From: Escherichia phage vB_Eco_SLUR25
Direction: 5' to 3' (one strand)
Sequence record: LT907986.1
Length of the DNA stretch: 58,998 nucleotides
Shown: in pieces, positions 38,340 through 43,194 of the stretch
How positions within the stretch are numbered: position 1 is the stretch's first letter
How the letters are laid out: each line of letters starts with the position of its first letter
Program-made: the position numbers and the translations under genes
Notes under the pieces: generated by a model
Told to the model about the DNA's origin: nothing
What the model saw: the letters and a program-made list of their open reading frames with translations, nothing else
The model's database searches: none

Positions 38340-39263
38340 ATGGCTACAGGTTCACGTTATTCGTGTTACTACGTCAAAGAAGATGTAAGCAACACTACGC
38401 CAGCGAGTGCGAAGTTTACTCCGTTCCGTGTGACCAGCTCCGGTCTGGACATTAATATTGCAACGCTGGAATCTGAAGAACTGCGCGATGACGCTGAAAC
38501 TGCGGACTTCCGCCTCGGTGCTCGCAGTGTTGAAGGTACAGTAACGGGCGAAATGTCCTTCGGCACCTTCGATGATCTTATTGCTGCTGCACTTCGTGGG
38601 GAGTGGCAAGACAATGTCCTTAAAGGTGGTATCGTTCGTCAGTCGTTTACTTTCGTAGACTATAACGCAGATCTACCGTCAGGTAAATATACAATTTATC
38701 GCGGTTGCGAAGTTAATAGCATGACTTTTTCATTGTCTGCGGAAAACATGACCACAGTGGAATTCGGTATTGTTGGGCGCTCGATGGAAATTGCGGAATC
38801 GCTTCCATCTGGTGCAACTATCAAAGCCCGTACAACTACGTCACCGATGGATGGTTTCTCCGGTCGCTTGCTGGAAAACGACGAAGAAATCAGCGTTATT
38901 ACGGAAATCGGTCTTACCGTTGAAAACGATATTGCGCCACGCTTTGTTGTTGGTTCTAAGTTCTCCATTGAACCGTCCGCTGGTCGTCGTGCGGTAACTG
39001 GTACAGCTAACGTGTACTTCCTGGATAACAAGCTGCGTATGAAGTATCTGGATGAAGTGGAAACTTCAATCAAGTTTGATCTGATTGACCCAAGCAATCC
39101 GGAACAAAAATACACTGTGGAAATTCCTCGCGTGAAATTCACTGAAGCTCCGCGTCCTATTGACGGTGAAGGGGATATCATGCTTAATATGGGCTACCGC
39201 GGATTGCTGGACCCAGCAACCGCAAGTTCCATCAAAATTACCCGCGTTGTAGCGGGAGCCTAA
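38340..39263 (+). CDS. major tail (tube) protein
   Basis: 307 aa ORF directly upstream of tail chaperone and tape measure genes. Confidence 0.55.
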   Translation: MATGSRYSCYYVKEDVSNTTPASAKFTPFRVTSSGLDINIATLESEELRDDAETADFRLGARSVEGTVTGEMSFGTFDDLIAAALRGEWQDNVLKGGIVRQSFTFVDYNADLPSGKYTIYRGCEVNSMTFSLSAENMTTVEFGIVGRSMEIAESLPSGATIKARTTTSPMDGFSGRLLENDEEISVITEIGLTVENDIAPRFVVGSKFSIEPSAGRRAVTGTANVYFLDNKLRMKYLDEVETSIKFDLIDPSNPEQKYTVEIPRVKFTEAPRPIDGEGDIMLNMGYRGLLDPATASSIKITRVVAGA

Positions 39264-39272
39264 GGATAAGAA

Positions 39273-39680
39273 ATGACCGACACCAAAAAAGCCAAAGTTG
39301 TAGTAGCTAAAAGCTTCCGTGATTTTAAAACTGTGAGCCGGGCTAACGACCCGGCAAACACTAAGCCAATGAGTGTGGTTATTCCTGGTGTAGGCGACAC
39401 TGGCGAAAAACTCTACATTCGTAGCCGCTACTGCACAGAGTACCGTGATGCTGAACTGAAAGCACAGCGTCAACTGTTGGCTCTTATGCAGGGTAAAGAC
39501 GGTGAAGTAACGGATGCTATGAAGGAAGATATCCTTACCCGTTCACTGTGTAACCTTGTAGCAGGTTGGACTTTTGACGAGCCACCGACTGTTGACAACG
39601 TGTTTGAGTTCTTAACGGAGAACCCAACTGTCCGAGAAGATCTTAACGTATTTGCCGCTAAAGATAGTAATTTTTTCTAA
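39273..39680 (+). CDS. tail assembly chaperone (gpG-like)
   Basis: 135 aa; ends in slippery heptamer T_TTT_TTC at 39671..39677; position between major tail and tape measure genes. Confidence 0.55.
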   Translation: MTDTKKAKVVVAKSFRDFKTVSRANDPANTKPMSVVIPGVGDTGEKLYIRSRYCTEYRDAELKAQRQLLALMQGKDGEVTDAMKEDILTRSLCNLVAGWTFDEPPTVDNVFEFLTENPTVREDLNVFAAKDSNFF

Positions 39681-40078
39681 AAGCGCGCAGACAGTTAATT
39701 GATAAGAAGATCCTCCAATGGGAACTAAATAGTAAAGTCCCCGGCGGGGGATCTTCTTTATTATCGCAACTGCAAAAGGTTGAGGAACAGTCTGGTAAGA
39801 CGCCACCTAAGCTTAAAGAATATCGGGAAAAGGAAATACCGATTTGCTTCGAATATCTATCTACTCTATTTGATGATATTTACACTGGAGGGGATTTTAG
39901 TTATACAGAATTGCACAGCTATCGAGTGACAATGGGCTTACATCTTCAACCGTACGAATGCGAAATACTGCGGCAGCTATGGCTTGAAAAGCGCGTGTCA
40001 GAAGCTGAACAAAATGCTAAACTCATGGAAAGTCAAATGCAAAATCAAAATAAAGGTAGAAGAAAAAGGAGAAGATAA
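39273..40078 (+). CDS. tail assembly chaperone frameshift product (gpGT-like) made by -1 programmed frameshift at 39671..39677
   Basis: -1 frame is open for 135 codons from the slippery site to TAA 40076..40078 with no start codon near its beginning; stop overlaps tape measure ATG (TAATG). Confidence 0.5.
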
Positions 40079-43000
40079 TGGCCGAAACCGCTTCGCTAGT
40101 AATCAGAGTTGACGCGAGAGGGATTAGTACCGCGGACTCTATGTTGCGGAACTTAGCGCGTACAGGTGACACAGCGGAGCGGTCTGCTCAACGTGTCACA
40201 TCAAGCTATAAAACATTGTCTAACACATCTAACGAACTTGCAACTGTCACAAGTCGTTTAGATGCTGCAATTGTAGGAATGATCAGCGTTGACACCATTA
40301 ACCGTGTTATTTCGCTATCGGACTCCTGGACTATCCTCACCAACAAACTTGAACTGGCTCGTACGGGTAATGAAACCGTTGCGGATGCACAGCAACGCGT
40401 GTTTGATATTGCCCAGCGGTCACGTACAAGCTTGGAAGCAACTGCAACTCTATATTCCCGTCTCCAGCGTGCAATGAAGAATACTGGTATGACGGGTATG
40501 GAGCTTGGACGTATCACTGAAACAATTAACAAAGCGATGATTGTTTCCGGTGCAACGTCACATGAAGCAAGCGCTGCCCTTATTCAGTTTTCGCAAGCGA
40601 TGGCATCCGGTGTTCTGCGAGGGGATGAATTCCGCTCTGTTGCAGAACAAGCACCCCGCTTAACTCAAATCATGTCCGATGCGTTAGGTGTTACCATTGG
40701 ACAATTGCGTGAAATGGCTTACAGCGGCAAGTTGAGCGCCGATGTGGTTATCAAATCGTTGTCTGGTGCTGCGGATACAATTGATAAAGAATTTAGCCGC
40801 ACTATGCCAACGTTTAACCAGCAATGGACGGTTGCAACAAACAACTTGACTAAGTTCATGGGCGAATCCCAAAAGACTCAAGGTGCGGTTGCTGCATTGG
40901 GACAGACGTTTGTTGCATTATCCGAAAACTTAGGAACGGTTGTAACGGTTGGTTCAGCTTTAGCCACAGTGATTACCGCCCGTATCATTACGGCAATGCT
41001 TGCTAAGACTAAAGCGTCTATAGCTGCTGCAAAAGCATCGCAGATGGAAGCTGCACAAACGGCGGCAACTACTGCGTTGATGCAAAGCTCTATTGGCGTT
41101 ACCGCGCAGAAAGCGGCGGCGGATCGTGCTGCTTCTCTTGCAGCGTTACAGGTTGCTCGCGGGTCATTAGCGGTTGCTAAAGGTACGGCAGCGGAAGCAG
41201 GCGCACGTCTTGCGCTTATTAACGCTACCCGTGCGCATTCTGCGGCAATTATGGCGGACGTACAAGCGCGGCAAGCGCTCAATGCTGCGCTTAATGCAAC
41301 TGTACCAGTCGCAAGCCGAGCAGCTACAGCAATGAGCGTGCTGCGCGGTGCTATGGGGTTAATTGGCGGTCCTGTTGGTGTAGCAATGCTGGCAGCGGGT
41401 GCAATTTACTCCTATAAAGCGTCGTTGGAAGCTGGTCGTGCGGAAAACAATCAGTTTGCGGATAGTGTTGATTCTGTACGCGAGAAACTGATGCAGATGA
41501 CAGAAGCTCAGTTGGCAGCTAACGCGGTCAAAGCTAGAGCAATCCTTCCGGAACTTGAAGAGCAAATGAAGCGAGATCAAACTGCTCTTAAATCTGCTAC
41601 AGAAACACAGAAGTTCTATGAAGCACAATTAAAACGCCGTGCCGCGTCCGGTCGTGATACAGCTAGTGCCGAGAAGAACTTACAAATTGCAACGGATAAC
41701 GTCAAGCTTGCTGCCGAGCGTGCTGAAGAAGCTCAACGTCGTTACAACAATGTCTTAGAAATGACAAGCCCTGCTATCGAGAAAATAATTCCGTTAGCTC
41801 GTCAGCTTGCTGCTGATATGAAGGCTGTTCTTAGCATCAAATCCGGTCCACTTATTGACGAGAAAGTCCTTGACCGTTTTAAAGGTCAGCTAGGTGATGT
41901 TAACCGTGAGATTGATGTTAACACGGTTAAGGGTGCTGGCAATGCTCGCCAAGCTGCAATCCTTAGTGGACTGTATCAGACGCTGGGCAAGGATGCGGAT
42001 ACATACGGAAGTCTTATTCGCAAAGTAGCTATGGGCCAGGACGTTAGCTCAGAGGCAACAAGCGAATCCGCTAAAGAGCTTGTTAAATATGCTCAAGATT
42101 TAGCGCAAGCTCTTGGCAAAAACTACGATCTTGAAGAAGCAGAGAGAAACCGGACTAAAGCTACAAAAGACGGTATTAAAGCAGAACAACAGAACGCCAA
42201 AGTTATTGACGATTTACGCAACAAGCTTAACGAAGTAACCACAGGGGTTAAGGAAAACGCCAAAGCGAAAGCTCAAGCTGTGGCTTTAAACAAGCTCAAT
42301 ACGTCTGCAACTGCCGCGGAAAAAGCAGAAGTTGTTAGTCTTGCTGCTGCAATTTACGATGCAGAAGAAGCTCAAAAGAAACTGGACGAGCGTAAGAAGA
42401 ATCGTAAGTTTGCTCAGGGTCTGTTAGATGAAGGTATGACAGACTATGAAAAAATCGCGTACGAGCAAAATACAAAGATTGCAGAGCTTAATGCAAAACA
42501 GCGAGCCGATGATTTAGCTTACTATCAGCTTTACGAAGATGCTAAAACCCAAGTGCTGAAAAAAGCAAGCATGGAAAGGGAAAACCTGGATAAAGTTCTT
42601 ATGAACCGAATGATATCTTTTTCTCAGGAATCCTTAGGCATTATAATGGATGGCCTGTCACAGGCTGTAAGCCAGCAGAACTTCTTTTATAAAGCTATGT
42701 TTGCAGCACAGAAAGCAATGCAAATCCCATCAATCCTTGCTAACACGGAAACGGCAGCATCTGCGGCGCTTGCATGGGGTACACAGCAAGGAGGTGCTAC
42801 GATGGGTGCAACAATGGCAGCTATAGTGAAAACTATGGGTTATGCGTCCGCTGCCACTGTGGGTGGCTTAGCGATTGCTGGTATGGCTCACGACGGTATT
42901 GATAACGTTCCGCGTGAAGGTACATGGTTGCTGGATAAGGGTGAACGTGTACTTAATGCTCCGTCTAATGACAAGTTAAATCGCTTCCTGGATAGCCAAG

Positions 43001-43194
43001 CTTCACAACAAGGTGGCGTGAATATGTCCGGTGGTGTTAGCATTGTTCAGTATATCACGGTGCAAGGAAATGGCGATGCAGCACTCACACAAGCCATGCA
43101 AAAAGCGGCCCGTGATGGCGCTGAGCAGGGATATAATAAAGTTCTTAATGACTTTGCATCCCGAGGAACAATTCGTAGAACTGCAATGGGGTAA
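40078..43194 (+). CDS. tail tape measure protein
   Basis: 1038 aa, Ala-rich alpha-helical, follows chaperone frameshift pair. Confidence 0.8.
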   Translation: MAETASLVIRVDARGISTADSMLRNLARTGDTAERSAQRVTSSYKTLSNTSNELATVTSRLDAAIVGMISVDTINRVISLSDSWTILTNKLELARTGNETVADAQQRVFDIAQRSRTSLEATATLYSRLQRAMKNTGMTGMELGRITETINKAMIVSGATSHEASAALIQFSQAMASGVLRGDEFRSVAEQAPRLTQIMSDALGVTIGQLREMAYSGKLSADVVIKSLSGAADTIDKEFSRTMPTFNQQWTVATNNLTKFMGESQKTQGAVAALGQTFVALSENLGTVVTVGSALATVITARIITAMLAKTKASIAAAKASQMEAAQTAATTALMQSSIGVTAQKAAADRAASLAALQVARGSLAVAKGTAAEAGARLALINATRAHSAAIMADVQARQALNAALNATVPVASRAATAMSVLRGAMGLIGGPVGVAMLAAGAIYSYKASLEAGRAENNQFADSVDSVREKLMQMTEAQLAANAVKARAILPELEEQMKRDQTALKSATETQKFYEAQLKRRAASGRDTASAEKNLQIATDNVKLAAERAEEAQRRYNNVLEMTSPAIEKIIPLARQLAADMKAVLSIKSGPLIDEKVLDRFKGQLGDVNREIDVNTVKGAGNARQAAILSGLYQTLGKDADTYGSLIRKVAMGQDVSSEATSESAKELVKYAQDLAQALGKNYDLEEAERNRTKATKDGIKAEQQNAKVIDDLRNKLNEVTTGVKENAKAKAQAVALNKLNTSATAAEKAEVVSLAAAIYDAEEAQKKLDERKKNRKFAQGLLDEGMTDYEKIAYEQNTKIAELNAKQRADDLAYYQLYEDAKTQVLKKASMERENLDKVLMNRMISFSQESLGIIMDGLSQAVSQQNFFYKAMFAAQKAMQIPSILANTETAASAALAWGTQQGGATMGATMAAIVKTMGYASAATVGGLAIAGMAHDGIDNVPREGTWLLDKGERVLNAPSNDKLNRFLDSQASQQGGVNMSGGVSIVQYITVQGNGDAALTQAMQKAARDGAEQGYNKVLNDFASRGTIRRTAMG

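What the first reader, a model, noticed from the sequence alone, without database searches (positions are those of the whole stretch)
39671..40078. Programmed -1 ribosomal frameshift in the tail assembly chaperone (G/GT-like)
The chaperone gene ends ...AAT TTT TTC TAA; the heptamer T_TTT_TTC (39671..39677) is a canonical slippery site. The -1 frame is open from it for 135 codons, has no start codon near its beginning, and ends with TAA overlapping the tape-measure ATG. This matches the conserved G/GT arrangement of long-tailed phages and would be missed by standard ORF calling.
Basis: partly seen in the sequence, partly recalled or inferred. Interest (0 to 1): 0.55.

Follow-up and report, generated by a model that had tools for sequence, protein, structure and literature searches.

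The report
Tail chaperone G/GT −1 frameshift site
This is the ordinary, widely conserved programmed −1 ribosomal frameshift that lets a long-tailed phage make a short and a long tail-assembly chaperone from one gene; it is really present here, but is already annotated in sister phages.

Summary
The window is a rotated copy of Escherichia phage vB_Eco_SLUR63 (Seuratvirus). The 135-aa gene 39273-39680 lies between the tail tube gene and the tape measure gene and ends AAT TTT TTC TAA. T_TTT_TTC (39671-39677) is in the X_XXY_YYZ register. The −1 frame is open to TAA 40076-40078, which overlaps the tape-measure ATG. It has no start codon for 80 codons.

Comparative evidence is strong. In all 95 related loci fetched, including Pseudomonas and Xanthomonas phages, the T part is in the −1 frame. 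All 83 unique junctions carry an in-register slippery heptamer at the homology junction: mostly T_TTT_TTC, sometimes A_AAA_AAG, T_TTT_TTT or A_AAT_TTT. Substitutions among 14 Seuratvirus genomes fall on third codon positions of the −1 frame. One PHROG profile spans G and T collinearly.

The predicted product is a 268-aa GT fusion alongside the 135-aa G. GenBank records of Seurat, SA80RD and SA126VB already annotate this join, so it is known, though not experimentally tested.

One extra: the 145 nt after the site are almost invariant and fold into a stable hairpin (39700-39763). Its role is unresolved (stimulator, attenuator or other).

The parts
38340..39263 (+). Major tail (tube) protein gene, the upstream neighbour that defines the G/GT position
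   Evidence: 307-aa ORF. Pfam PF18906 Phage_tube_2 at 3.9e-41 and phrog_290. Annotated as tail subunit or tail tube in relatives.
39273..39680 (+). G: the short tail assembly (tape measure) chaperone made by standard decoding. 135 aa, 15.2 kDa, stop TAA 39678-80.
   Evidence: ORF and translation. phrog_569 at 9e-26 (profile positions 11-126) and phrog_313 'Tail assembly chaperone' at 3.7e-11. Annotated 'tape measure chaperone' in Seurat, SA80RD and the BASEL phages.
39671..39677 (+). Slippery heptamer T_TTT_TTC in the X_XXY_YYZ register of G; the proposed -1 shift site
   Evidence: Read directly from the sequence. Identical in 14 of 14 Seuratvirus genomes. An in-register heptamer is present at the homologous junction in 83 of 83 unique relatives. 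The codon holding X1 varies (9 codons, 9 amino acids) but ends in T in 68 of 68 cases. U_UU.U_UU.C is among the efficient -1 motifs measured in E. coli (PMC4066793). Seurat's annotated slippage point, 10236, maps to window 39674.
39677..40078 (+). T extension: the -1 frame segment of 133 codons plus TAA, read after the shift. G 39273-39677 joined to 39677-40078 gives GT (268 aa, 30.9 kDa, pI 8.7).
   Evidence: Open frame with no start codon before 39911. phrog_569 at 2e-46 (profile positions 130-256) and Pfam PF23812 Phage_TAC_18 at 7e-9, 36.1 bits against a cut-off of 27. Variable sites by -1-frame codon position are 2/4/19 overall and 2/0/11 upstream of the first start codon. The translated Seurat joined CDS is 268 aa with 5 differences.
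39660..39804 (+). Nearly invariant nucleotide block that starts at the shift site: suppressed synonymous variation, suggesting a cis-acting RNA element
   Evidence: In the 14-genome gapless alignment of 4901 nt, the longest invariant run is 39660-39732. Only 39733 and 39766 vary within 39660-39804, where about 24 variable sites would be expected. Third positions vary at 2 of 42 here against 649 of 1566 elsewhere (Fisher 1.8e-7; P=0.002 against the rest of G+T).
39700..39763 (+). Predicted stable RNA hairpin, 22 nt after the heptamer, possibly extended to 39692-39772 by CAGUU/AACUG. Candidate frameshift stimulator or other regulatory structure.
   Evidence: The hairpin alone is -28.2 kcal/mol, with base-pair probabilities near 1.0 in every folding context tried. 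The extension has p 0.6-0.85. The fold of 39678-39800 is -40.7 kcal/mol with z -4.9. Both variable sites of the block fall in unpaired positions. Hairpins occur on the homologous codons in yong3, JenK1, K9PH25C2 and Vid5 with different sequences.
39737..39752 (+). Local GC hairpin GTCCCCGGCGGGGGAT followed by CTTCTTTATT; a terminator-like pattern inside the larger hairpin
   Evidence: Found by the consensus scan, but 4 sites were found against 3.2 expected. The local pairing has probability near 0 in the ensemble, where the long hairpin wins.
40067..40071 (+). AGGAG Shine-Dalgarno for the tape measure gene, embedded in the last codons of T
   Evidence: Sequence AAAAAGGAGAAGATAATG read, 6 nt before ATG 40078. 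An RBS is annotated at the equivalent place in Seurat.
40078..43194 (+). Tape measure protein gene (1038 aa), the downstream neighbour. Its ATG overlaps the TAA of T (TAATG).
   Evidence: ORF. Pfam TMP_3 at 6.5e-60 and phrog_339 at 1.7e-180.

Best explanation
This is a programmed -1 ribosomal frameshift of the lambda G/GT type.

Most ribosomes translating the chaperone gene from ATG 39273 stop at TAA 39678-80 and release the 135-aa G protein. A minority shift while the two Phe-tRNAs sit on TTT (P site, 39672-74) and TTC (A site, 39675-77). Both slip back one base and re-pair with TTT/TTT (39671-76). The next codon read is then CTA (39677-79). Translation continues for 133 codons in the -1 frame to TAA 40076-78, giving a 268-aa GT fusion with the junction ...KDSNFF-LKARRQ...

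By analogy with lambda gpG/gpGT, G and the G part of GT should coat the tape measure protein. The T part should recruit the tail tube protein. The frameshift rate then fixes the G:GT ratio, and neither protein ends up in the virion.

What is shown here: the anatomy, the homology, the conservation of site and register, and translation of the -1 frame under purifying selection. What is inferred: the shifting itself, its efficiency and the chaperone functions.

The stable hairpin at 39700-39763, inside an almost invariant 145-nt block, may modulate the shift. That is a secondary and much less certain part of the explanation.
For: 1. Anatomy. The heptamer is in register, a stop follows it directly, the -1 ORF has no start for 80 codons, and it ends in TAATG at the tape measure gene.
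2. Position. The pair lies between the tail tube and tape measure genes.
3. Collinear family match. One PHROG profile (phrog_569, 256 positions) matches G at 11-126 and T at 130-256. Pfam Phage_TAC_18 hits T above its cut-off, and phrog_313 'Tail assembly chaperone' hits G.
4. Frame relation. In 95 of 95 related loci from GenBank phages and IMG/VR, T is in the -1 frame relative to G. The set spans about 22-99% amino-acid identity, locus GC 0.40-0.66, and hosts from E. coli to Pseudomonas and Xanthomonas. None is fused in frame or in the +1 frame.
5. Heptamer at the junction. All 83 unique junctions have an in-register X_XXY_YYZ heptamer exactly where G homology ends and T homology starts: 67 T_TTT_TTC, 9 A_AAA_AAG, 5 T_TTT_TTT, 2-3 A_AAT_TTT and 1 T_TTT_TTA. 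The G stop lies anywhere from 0 to 93 nt downstream. Turnover between different slippery heptamers points to selection for slipperiness rather than for the peptide.
6. X1 position. It is T in 68 of 68 T-type junctions, although it is the third base of 9 different codons (L, R, N, H, A, D, F, V, S). That base is needed only for tandem P+A-site re-pairing.
7. Continuous alignment. Fusion proteins built by shifting at the heptamer align across the junction in 13 diverse phages. Invariant or near-invariant residues G158, V170, K172, G175, P178, P190, Y195 and G206 are all encoded upstream of the first possible start codon.
8. Selection. Among 14 Seuratvirus genomes the T region varies at -1-frame codon positions 2/4/19, and 2/0/11 in 39677-39910. 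It has no stops, and the heptamer is identical in 14 of 14.
9. Motif efficiency. U_UU.U_UU.C is an experimentally efficient -1 motif in E. coli and is used by IS elements (PMC4066793).
10. Independent annotation. Other annotators reached the same join in Seurat, SA80RD and SA126VB. The Seurat join translates to the same 268-aa protein with 5 substitutions.
Against: - There is no experimental evidence (protein, reporter or mass spectrometry) for this phage or any relative in the literature I could search.
- The predicted main hairpin starts 22 nt after the heptamer, or 14 nt with its extension. That is further than the 5-9 nt typical of -1 stimulators. A helix starting 7 nt downstream appears only in one folding context.
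- No Shine-Dalgarno-like stimulator is visible upstream.
- The protein product cannot be told apart from one made by transcriptional insertion of one U.
- There is no detectable sequence similarity to the lambda gpG/gpT Pfam families or to any solved structure, so the functional analogy rests on position and family labels.
Confidence: 0.9

Rival explanations
1. Transcriptional slippage. RNA polymerase stutters on the T6 run (39671-39676) and inserts one extra U in a fraction of mRNAs. Normal translation of those mRNAs gives the identical N-F-F-L... GT protein.
For: The site is a homopolymer run, and T-run lengths in relatives are 6 (32 cases), 7 (34), 8 (1) and 9 (1). The product would be indistinguishable at the protein level. 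The Atkins et al. review notes that U/A runs can cause polymerase slippage (PMC5009743).
Against: - Runs of 6-7 are short for efficient bacterial RNAP slippage (established knowledge, not tested here).
- The run is always in the X_XXY_YYZ register of the G frame, 83 of 83, which transcription would not require.
- Some lineages replace it with A_AAT_TTT, which is not a homopolymer run but is a valid tandem-slippage heptamer (L045, L092).
- Others use A_AAA_AAG, the classic ribosomal site.
Confidence: 0.05
2. Single-tRNA P-site slippage at a 'shifty stop'. The shift happens one codon later, when TTC (39675-77) is in the P site and the slowly decoded TAA (39678-80) is in the A site. Only one Phe-tRNA slips to TTT (39674-76). 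Site and product are the same; the kinetic step and the controlling factors differ (release-factor competition).
For: The G stop codon directly abuts the heptamer in Seuratvirus, Hafnia phage yong3, Nonagvirus and Klebsiella phage K9PH25C2, and lies 3 nt away in Vid5. This adjacency is therefore conserved across several genera.
Against: In most of the family the stop is 9-93 nt downstream, yet the heptamer is kept. The X1 base (39671), which is irrelevant to single P-site slippage, is T in 68 of 68 junctions despite variable codons. That argues that the tandem mechanism is what is selected. The two mechanisms could operate together in this lineage.
Confidence: 0.15
3. No recoding: the downstream frame is an independent small gene started from an internal codon. 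Candidates are TTG 39911, GTG 39926 or ATG 39932, as several GenBank records annotate, giving a 48-70-aa 'tape measure chaperone'. The open stretch before it would then be fortuitous.
For: Gene callers and annotators have produced such ORFs in GottfriedDienst, CSP1C, Skure, Greed, KS_W4 and ECP2304.
Against: - The 78 codons upstream of 39911 match the family profile (phrog_569 from position 130).
- They hold the family's most conserved residues, the G158-G206 region.
- They evolve with third-position bias in the -1 frame, 2/0/11.
- The ATG at 39932 is preceded by CACAGCTATCGAGTGACA, which I read as lacking a Shine-Dalgarno match.
- In distant relatives the called starts differ in position and codon, while the heptamer junction is constant.
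Confidence: 0.03
4. Artefact or decay: a sequencing or assembly indel in a T-run, or a frameshift mutation that split one ancestral chaperone gene, with no programmed event.
For: Homopolymer runs are error-prone in sequencing. Only the genome sequence is available.
Against: The same -1 arrangement occurs in 95 of 95 independent genomes and contigs, sequenced by many groups and platforms. None is in frame. The G-only C-terminal tails differ in length across the family, so the stop in the 0 frame is a maintained feature.
Confidence: 0.01

Closest known systems
Escherichia phage Seurat CPT_Seurat13/14 'tape measure chaperone' (KM236243.1; also SA80RD OL960575.1 and SA126VB OL960573.1)
   Same: These are the orthologous locus in the same genus, with about 95% nucleotide identity over 4.9 kb. 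The heptamer and flanks are identical. The joined CDS is annotated with 'ribosomal slippage (10236)', which maps to window 39674. Its product is 268 aa and differs from the window's GT at 5 residues. The genome announcement lists a tape measure chaperone (PMC4342423).
   Different: Nothing of substance. The window's own record (SLUR63, LR025196.1) simply lacks the annotation. The Seurat annotation is computational; I found no experimental test.
Bacteriophage lambda gpG/gpGT (Levin, Hendrix and Casjens 1993; Xu, Hendrix and Duda 2004, 2013, 2014; as summarised in PMC5009743)
   Same: Two overlapping ORFs lie between the major tail gene and the tape measure gene. A -1 shift at an X_XXY_YYZ heptamer near the end of G produces a short and a long product that share an N-terminus. 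The arrangement is conserved across long-tailed phages despite sequence divergence (for the published description; for this locus).
   Different: - The heptamer is T_TTT_TTC, whereas lambda uses G_GGA_AAG (my knowledge of the lambda literature, not checked here).
- The 0-frame stop directly abuts the heptamer here.
- There are no detectable Pfam hits to the lambda G or T families; the hits are Phage_TAC_18 and weakly Phage_TAC_4.
- A strong downstream hairpin is predicted here. As far as I know lambda needs no such structure (not checked here).
- The efficiency and the roughly 30:1 ratio are unknown for this phage.
E. coli dnaX tau/gamma and IS3-family -1 frameshift signals
   Same: These are bacterial -1 tandem slippage on X_XXY_YYZ heptamers. 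U_UU.U_UU.C is one of the heptamers used by IS elements and is efficient in E. coli reporters (PMC4066793).
   Different: Those signals have defined stimulators: an upstream SD-like element and a hairpin or pseudoknot 5-9 nt downstream. Here no SD-like element is seen. The robust hairpin starts 14-22 nt downstream.
phrog_569 / Pfam PF23812 (Phage_TAC_18) family members in Nonagvirus, Vidquintavirus, Craquatrovirus, Abidjanvirus and others
   Same: These are homologous G and T parts with the same -1 relation and a heptamer at the same junction.
   Different: The G stop lies 0-93 nt after the heptamer. Some lineages switched to A_AAA_AAG, T_TTT_TTT, A_AAT_TTT or T_TTT_TTA. Downstream structure is strong in some members and absent in others. 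Most of these records do not annotate the join.

Membership tests
G/GT-type tail assembly chaperone pair with programmed frameshift (lambda paradigm) | The pair lies between the major tail (tube) gene and the tape measure gene | tested here: met
   The tube gene is 38340-39263 (Phage_tube_2, 3.9e-41) and the tape measure gene is 40078-43194 (TMP_3, 6.5e-60). G and T fill the gap between them exactly.
G/GT-type tail assembly chaperone pair with programmed frameshift (lambda paradigm) | The second ORF overlaps the end of the first in another frame and lacks its own start codon and RBS near its beginning | tested here: met
   The -1 frame is open from 39671. The first ATG/GTG/TTG is at 39911, with no evident SD (my reading of the sequence).
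G/GT-type tail assembly chaperone pair with programmed frameshift (lambda paradigm) | A slippery heptamer X_XXY_YYZ lies in the 0-frame register inside the overlap | tested here: met
   T_TTT_TTC at 39671-39677. The motif is efficient in E. coli according to PMC4066793.
G/GT-type tail assembly chaperone pair with programmed frameshift (lambda paradigm) | The two-frame arrangement and the shift site are conserved in diverged relatives | tested here: met
   T is in the -1 frame in 95 of 95 loci. All 83 unique junctions carry an in-register heptamer. X1 is T in 68 of 68.
G/GT-type tail assembly chaperone pair with programmed frameshift (lambda paradigm) | The extension is a real coding sequence under purifying selection in the shifted frame | tested here: met
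   Variable sites by -1-frame codon position are 2/4/19, and 2/0/11 before the first start codon. Only 5 of 133 amino-acid positions vary among 14 genomes.
G/GT-type tail assembly chaperone pair with programmed frameshift (lambda paradigm) | Two proteins, G and GT, are actually made at a fixed low GT:G ratio | not testable with these tools
   This needs a western blot, mass spectrometry or a reporter assay. No such data for this phage group were found in the searchable literature.
G/GT-type tail assembly chaperone pair with programmed frameshift (lambda paradigm) | G binds the tape measure protein, T binds the tail tube protein, and both are absent from virions | not testable with these tools
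   The Vid5 virion proteomics text names tail proteins but not gp16/gp17. A search of the supplement returned nothing usable.
Curated tail-assembly-chaperone sequence families | A significant match to a TAC profile | tested here: met
   T part: Pfam PF23812 Phage_TAC_18 at 36.1 bits against a cut-off of 27. G part: phrog_313 'Tail assembly chaperone' at 3.7e-11. Both parts match phrog_569. Pfam Phage_TAC_4 on G is below threshold (14.3 bits against 21.1). NCBIfam gave no hit.
Lambda gpG / gpT sequence families specifically | Sequence homology to lambda G and T | tested here: not met
   A Pfam scan at E<=1 returned only Metallophos_3 (weak), Phage_TAC_4 (weak) and Phage_TAC_18. The PDB sequence search gave only noise. 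This does not affect the functional analogy, because the published description stresses low sequence similarity between phages.
-1 PRF signal with a defined stimulator (dnaX / IS3 type) | A stable hairpin or pseudoknot begins about 5-9 nt 3' of the heptamer | tested here: inconclusive
   The robust hairpin 39700-39763 begins 22 nt downstream, and its extension (39692) 14 nt downstream. A helix at 7 nt (39685) appears only when folding is limited to 39678-39800. Family-wide, the 125 nt after the site are more structured than controls (P=0.002), but the effect is heterogeneous.
-1 PRF signal with a defined stimulator (dnaX / IS3 type) | An upstream Shine-Dalgarno-like element about 10-14 nt 5' of the heptamer | tested here: not met
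   The upstream sequence GCCGCTAAAGATAGTAA has no GGAGG/AGGA-like match (read).
Intrinsic transcription terminator (considered for the hairpin) | A GC-rich stem-loop immediately followed by a U tract, above chance expectation | tested here: inconclusive
   The pattern scan flags 39737-39752 plus CTTCTTTATT, but the region yields 4 hits against 3.2 expected. The U-rich tract is paired in the dominant long hairpin. The U tract is not conserved in the Nonagvirus or K9PH25C2 hairpins.

The most novel reading that the evidence does not exclude
The almost invariant 145-nt block (39660-39804) and its roughly 64-80-nt hairpin form a dedicated cis-acting RNA element of Seuratvirus-like phages. It acts at an unusual distance from the slip site, 14-22 nt. 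Two non-exclusive roles are possible.

- It may set the G:GT ratio, for example by pausing or queuing ribosomes.
- It may form only on the mostly ribosome-free mRNA downstream of the G stop. There it could attenuate transcription or stabilise the upstream tube-G message, so that tube and G are made in large excess over the tape measure protein.

Functionally analogous hairpins, different in sequence and register, sit on the homologous codons in Nonagvirus, Vid5 and K9PH25C2.
Probability: 0.3. Interest if true: 0.35.

Novelty: already known. Interest (0 to 1): 0.15.

Why it matters
For this genome the practical value is annotation. SLUR63 and most of its relatives lack the GT fusion CDS. Many carry spurious small ORFs or mislabel G as 'tail length tape measure protein'. 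The join 39273..39677,39677..40078 should be added.

Biologically it is one more instance of a very well known recoding event.

The comparative dataset does give an unusually clean illustration of selection acting on a slippery heptamer rather than on the encoded peptide:
- X1 is always T across nine different codons.
- Heptamers turn over among T_TTT_TTC, A_AAA_AAG and A_AAT_TTT at one junction.
- The T-run is kept even in loci with up to 66% GC.

The invariant hairpin block is a small but testable lead on how the G:GT ratio, or tube/G versus tape-measure stoichiometry, might be tuned in this phage group.

Tried and rejected
- **Rfam scan** of 39500-40100 at a permissive E-value. It returned only sub-threshold hairpin-like noise (miRNA models, RAGATH-25 at 20 bits against a cut-off of 49). 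No known frameshift element was found.
- **PDB sequence search** with a 10-sequence GT profile. It returned only noise (a designed repeat protein, DNMT3), so no solved relative is detectable by sequence.
- **NCBIfam scan** of G and T. Nothing meaningful.
- **Column-by-column covariation** of the window's MFE structure across genera. It fails outside Seuratvirus and yong3 because the 3' arm of the hairpin sits in a different register in Nonagvirus, K9PH25C2 and Vid5; for example it is 5 nt closer in JenK1. I therefore do not claim a strictly homologous covarying structure, only hairpins on the homologous codons. Between the window and yong3 there is one compensatory A-U to U-A change and two one-sided compatible changes, too few to be decisive.
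- **The outer helix 39685-96/39786-96**, which would give a canonical 7-nt spacer. It is not robust to the folding context, so I do not rely on it.
- **An empirical '-1 continuation length' control** over all long ORFs. It was uninformative because overlapping real genes dominate the top of the list.
- **Literature.** The Seurat announcement mentions only a 'tape measure chaperone'. The Seuratvirus comparative paper and the Vid5 paper do not mention the frameshift. The Vid5 supplement search found nothing. A search for CAjan proteomics was swamped by the plant Cajanus.
- **Not run.** I did not run the large protein homology searches or structure prediction. The family assignment was already clear from the profile libraries, and the verdict would not have changed.
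Full report
**Identity of the window.** A tblastn search with the predicted fusion protein finds Escherichia phage vB_Eco_SLUR63 (LR025196.1) at 100% identity. That record is 58,998 bp, the same length as the window. A 2,424-nt stretch of the record is found exactly in the window, and the record's end corresponds to window 40496. The window is therefore a rotated copy of this genome. SLUR63 belongs to Seuratvirus (Queuovirinae). The 4.9 kb around the finding is 93-97.5% identical to CAjan, Seurat, the BASEL phages and others.

**Checking the observation.**
- ORF 39273..39680 (135 aa) ends AGT AAT TTT TTC TAA.
- TTTTTTC occupies 39671-39677 and reads T_TTT_TTC in the gene's frame.
- The -1 frame has a TAA at 39668-70 and is then open to TAA 40076-78. 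That stop overlaps ATG 40078-80 of a 1038-aa ORF.
- The first ATG/GTG/TTG in the -1 frame is at 39911, 80 codons in.
- A stop-free run of 133 codons has P about 7e-5 at the local composition. In-register X_XXY_YYZ heptamers occupy about 0.27% of codon positions in long ORFs of the window.

**What the genes are.**
- The upstream ORF 38340-39263 is a tail tube protein (Pfam Phage_tube_2, 3.9e-41).
- The downstream ORF is a tape measure protein (TMP_3, 6.5e-60; phrog_339, 1.7e-180).
- The 135-aa protein matches phrog_569 (9e-26, profile positions 11-126 of 256) and phrog_313 'Tail assembly chaperone' (3.7e-11).
- The -1 ORF matches the same phrog_569 at positions 130-256 (2e-46). It also matches Pfam PF23812 Phage_TAC_18 above its gathering score.

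The two reading frames are therefore collinear halves of a single protein family. That is what a G/GT fusion predicts.

**Prior annotation.** The Seurat record (KM236243.1) has a two-piece joined CDS, 'tape measure chaperone'. SA80RD and SA126VB carry the same join. Translating the Seurat join gives 268 aa, with 5 differences from the window's predicted GT. The Seurat announcement lists a tape measure chaperone (PMC4342423).

Other records do not have the join. The window's own record annotates only G, as 'hypothetical protein', and nothing over T. CAjan, RCIP0359 and phiG7 also annotate nothing over T. The BASEL phages, CSP1C, Greed, Skure, KS_W4 and ECP2304 call short internal ORFs there.

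**Comparative test.** I collected 15 annotated relatives spanning Seuratvirus, Nonagvirus, Vidquintavirus, Craquatrovirus, Abidjanvirus and unclassified Klebsiella, Providencia and Xanthomonas phages. I added 80 IMG/VR loci found with a 10-sequence GT alignment.
- HMMs of the G and T halves place T in the -1 frame relative to G in 95 of 95 loci. None is in frame or +1.
- In all 83 unique junctions there is an in-register X_XXY_YYZ heptamer at the point where G homology ends and T homology begins: T_TTT_TTC in 67, A_AAA_AAG in 9, T_TTT_TTT in 5, A_AAT_TTT in 2-3 and T_TTT_TTA in 1.
- The 0-frame stop lies 0-93 nt downstream.
- The T-run persists in loci of 60-66% GC.
- The first T of the heptamer is the third base of nine different codons (L, R, N, H, A, D, F, V, S) and is T in 68 of 68 cases.
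- Fusion proteins built by shifting at the heptamer align without a break across the junction.

This is nucleotide-level selection for a tandem-slippage site, with turnover between alternative slippery heptamers.

**Evidence that the -1 frame is translated.** I aligned 14 Seuratvirus genomes over 4,901 nt without gaps.
- The T region varies at -1-frame codon positions 2/4/19. The other two phasings show no third-position excess.
- The 78 codons upstream of the first possible start codon vary 2/0/11.
- No stop interrupts the frame in any genome, and only 5 of 133 residues vary.
- The most conserved residues of the family (G158-G206 in fusion numbering) are encoded before 39911.

This excludes independent initiation as the source of the T domain.

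**Mechanism.** The most likely mechanism is tandem -1 slippage of the two Phe-tRNAs from UUU-UUC to UUU-UUU, after which CUA (Leu) is read. The products are G (135 aa, 15.2 kDa, pI 5.2) and GT (268 aa, 30.9 kDa, pI 8.7). U_UU.U_UU.C is among the efficient -1 heptamers measured in E. coli and is used by IS elements (PMC4066793).

By analogy with lambda, as summarised in PMC5009743, G and GT should bind the tape measure protein. The T domain should recruit the tube protein, and the frameshift rate should fix their ratio. These functional steps are inferred, not shown. The tape measure gene has its own AGGAG (40067-71) inside the last T codons, so its translation does not depend on ribosomes coming through T.

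**Rival mechanisms.**
- Transcriptional slippage would give the same protein. It is disfavoured by the short run (6 T), by strict conservation of the register, and by lineages that use A_AAT_TTT.
- A 'shifty stop' single-tRNA slip could contribute in this lineage, because the TAA abuts the heptamer in Seuratvirus, Nonagvirus and K9PH25C2. The universal X1 = T and the many relatives with distant stops argue that tandem slippage is the selected mechanism.
- Sequencing error or gene decay is excluded by 95 independent loci.

**An extra feature.** The longest invariant run in the whole 4.9-kb alignment is 39660-39732, which starts at the shift site.
- Only 39733 and 39766 vary between 39660 and 39804, where about 24 variable sites would be expected.
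- Third codon positions vary at 2 of 42 here against 649 of 1566 elsewhere (Fisher 1.8e-7). Against the rest of G+T the P value is 0.002.
- The region folds strongly: 39678-39800 gives -40.7 kcal/mol with z about -4.9.
- The core hairpin 39700-39763 is -28.2 kcal/mol and has pairing probabilities near 1 in every context tried. A likely extension pairs 39692-96 with 39768-72.
- Both variable sites fall in unpaired positions.

Comparable hairpins sit on the homologous codons (the ILQWE and GGSSLL regions) in yong3, JenK1, K9PH25C2 and Vid5. Their sequences differ and the 3' arm is in a shifted register. In Nonagvirus the four variable sites inside its hairpin are in loops or convert G-C to G-U. 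Across 47 non-redundant relatives, the 125 nt after the heptamer are more structured than control windows (mean z -1.5 against -0.65; paired Wilcoxon P=0.002). Many members nevertheless show nothing.

The hairpin starts 14-22 nt after the heptamer rather than 5-9 nt. A 7-nt-spaced helix is not robust. A role as a classical stimulator is therefore uncertain. Alternative roles are transcription attenuation or mRNA stabilisation on the mostly untranslated stretch after the G stop, and these remain open. The terminator-like pattern at 39737-39752 is no more than the scan expects by chance. Rfam has no matching family.

**Comparison with known systems and verdict.** The locus meets every sequence-testable criterion of the G/GT tail-assembly-chaperone frameshift. 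It is orthologous to the annotated Seurat gp13/gp14 pair. It has no detectable sequence similarity to the lambda gpG/gpT families or to solved structures, which is usual for this functional class.

The finding is correct, well supported and ordinary: already known for the genus, and merely unannotated in this particular record. The invariant hairpin block is the only element that might repay an experiment.

Noticed in passing
window 39660-39804 (hairpin 39700-39763): This is the longest invariant stretch in a 4.9-kb alignment of 14 Seuratvirus genomes. It begins at the slip site and coincides with a very stable predicted hairpin. Only two sites vary, and both are unpaired. Eight consecutive codons (PGGGSSLL, CCCGGCGGGGGATCTTCTTTATTA) are nucleotide-identical even in Hafnia phage yong3, whose GT is only 58% identical at the protein level.
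   Followed up: partly
window 40496/40497: The window is a rotated copy of LR025196.1. The GenBank record's linear ends fall inside the tape measure gene (record end = window 40496), so the record splits that gene.
   Followed up: partly
window 39780-39929, 39911-40078 and 39932-40078: Relatives' GenBank records annotate short ORFs here. Examples are a 49-aa 0-frame ORF in KS_W4, and a 48-aa ATG or a 70-aa TTG '(putative) tape measure chaperone' in the BASEL phages, CSP1C and Skure. They are gene-caller by-products of the unannotated frameshift. The 0-frame ORF overlaps T out of frame.
   Followed up: yes
phrog_569 label; relatives NC_028776, PP627278-82, OY979394: PHROG 569, which is the G/GT chaperone family, is labelled 'tail length tape measure protein'. 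Records annotated from PHROGs therefore show the chaperone region as tape measure protein. This label error is propagating.
   Followed up: partly
loci L029-L033, L041, L051, L072, L086 (A_AAA_AAG); L045, L092 (A_AAT_TTT); L015 (T_TTT_TTA followed by T_TTA_AAG): Within one protein family the slippery heptamer has been replaced several times by a different canonical heptamer at, or one codon from, the same junction. It is a neat natural experiment on slip-site turnover.
   Followed up: partly
window 4959, 4974, 8674 (+ strand); 30108, 36120, 36335, 42448, 42558 (- strand): These are the other TTTTTTC occurrences in the genome. Three in-register T_TTT_TTC heptamers were counted in long + strand stop-to-stop ORFs. 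I did not check whether any lies in a real gene with an open -1 frame.
   Followed up: no
window 40076-40080 and 40067-40071: The T stop and the tape measure start overlap as TAATG. The tape measure gene's AGGAG lies in the arginine/lysine-rich last codons of T (…KGRRKRRR).
   Followed up: partly
window 39241-39256 (- strand): A terminator-like hairpin, CCCGCTACAACGCGGG followed by a T-rich tail, lies on the minus strand at the end of the tube gene. It was flagged only by the consensus scan, at chance-level frequency.
   Followed up: no
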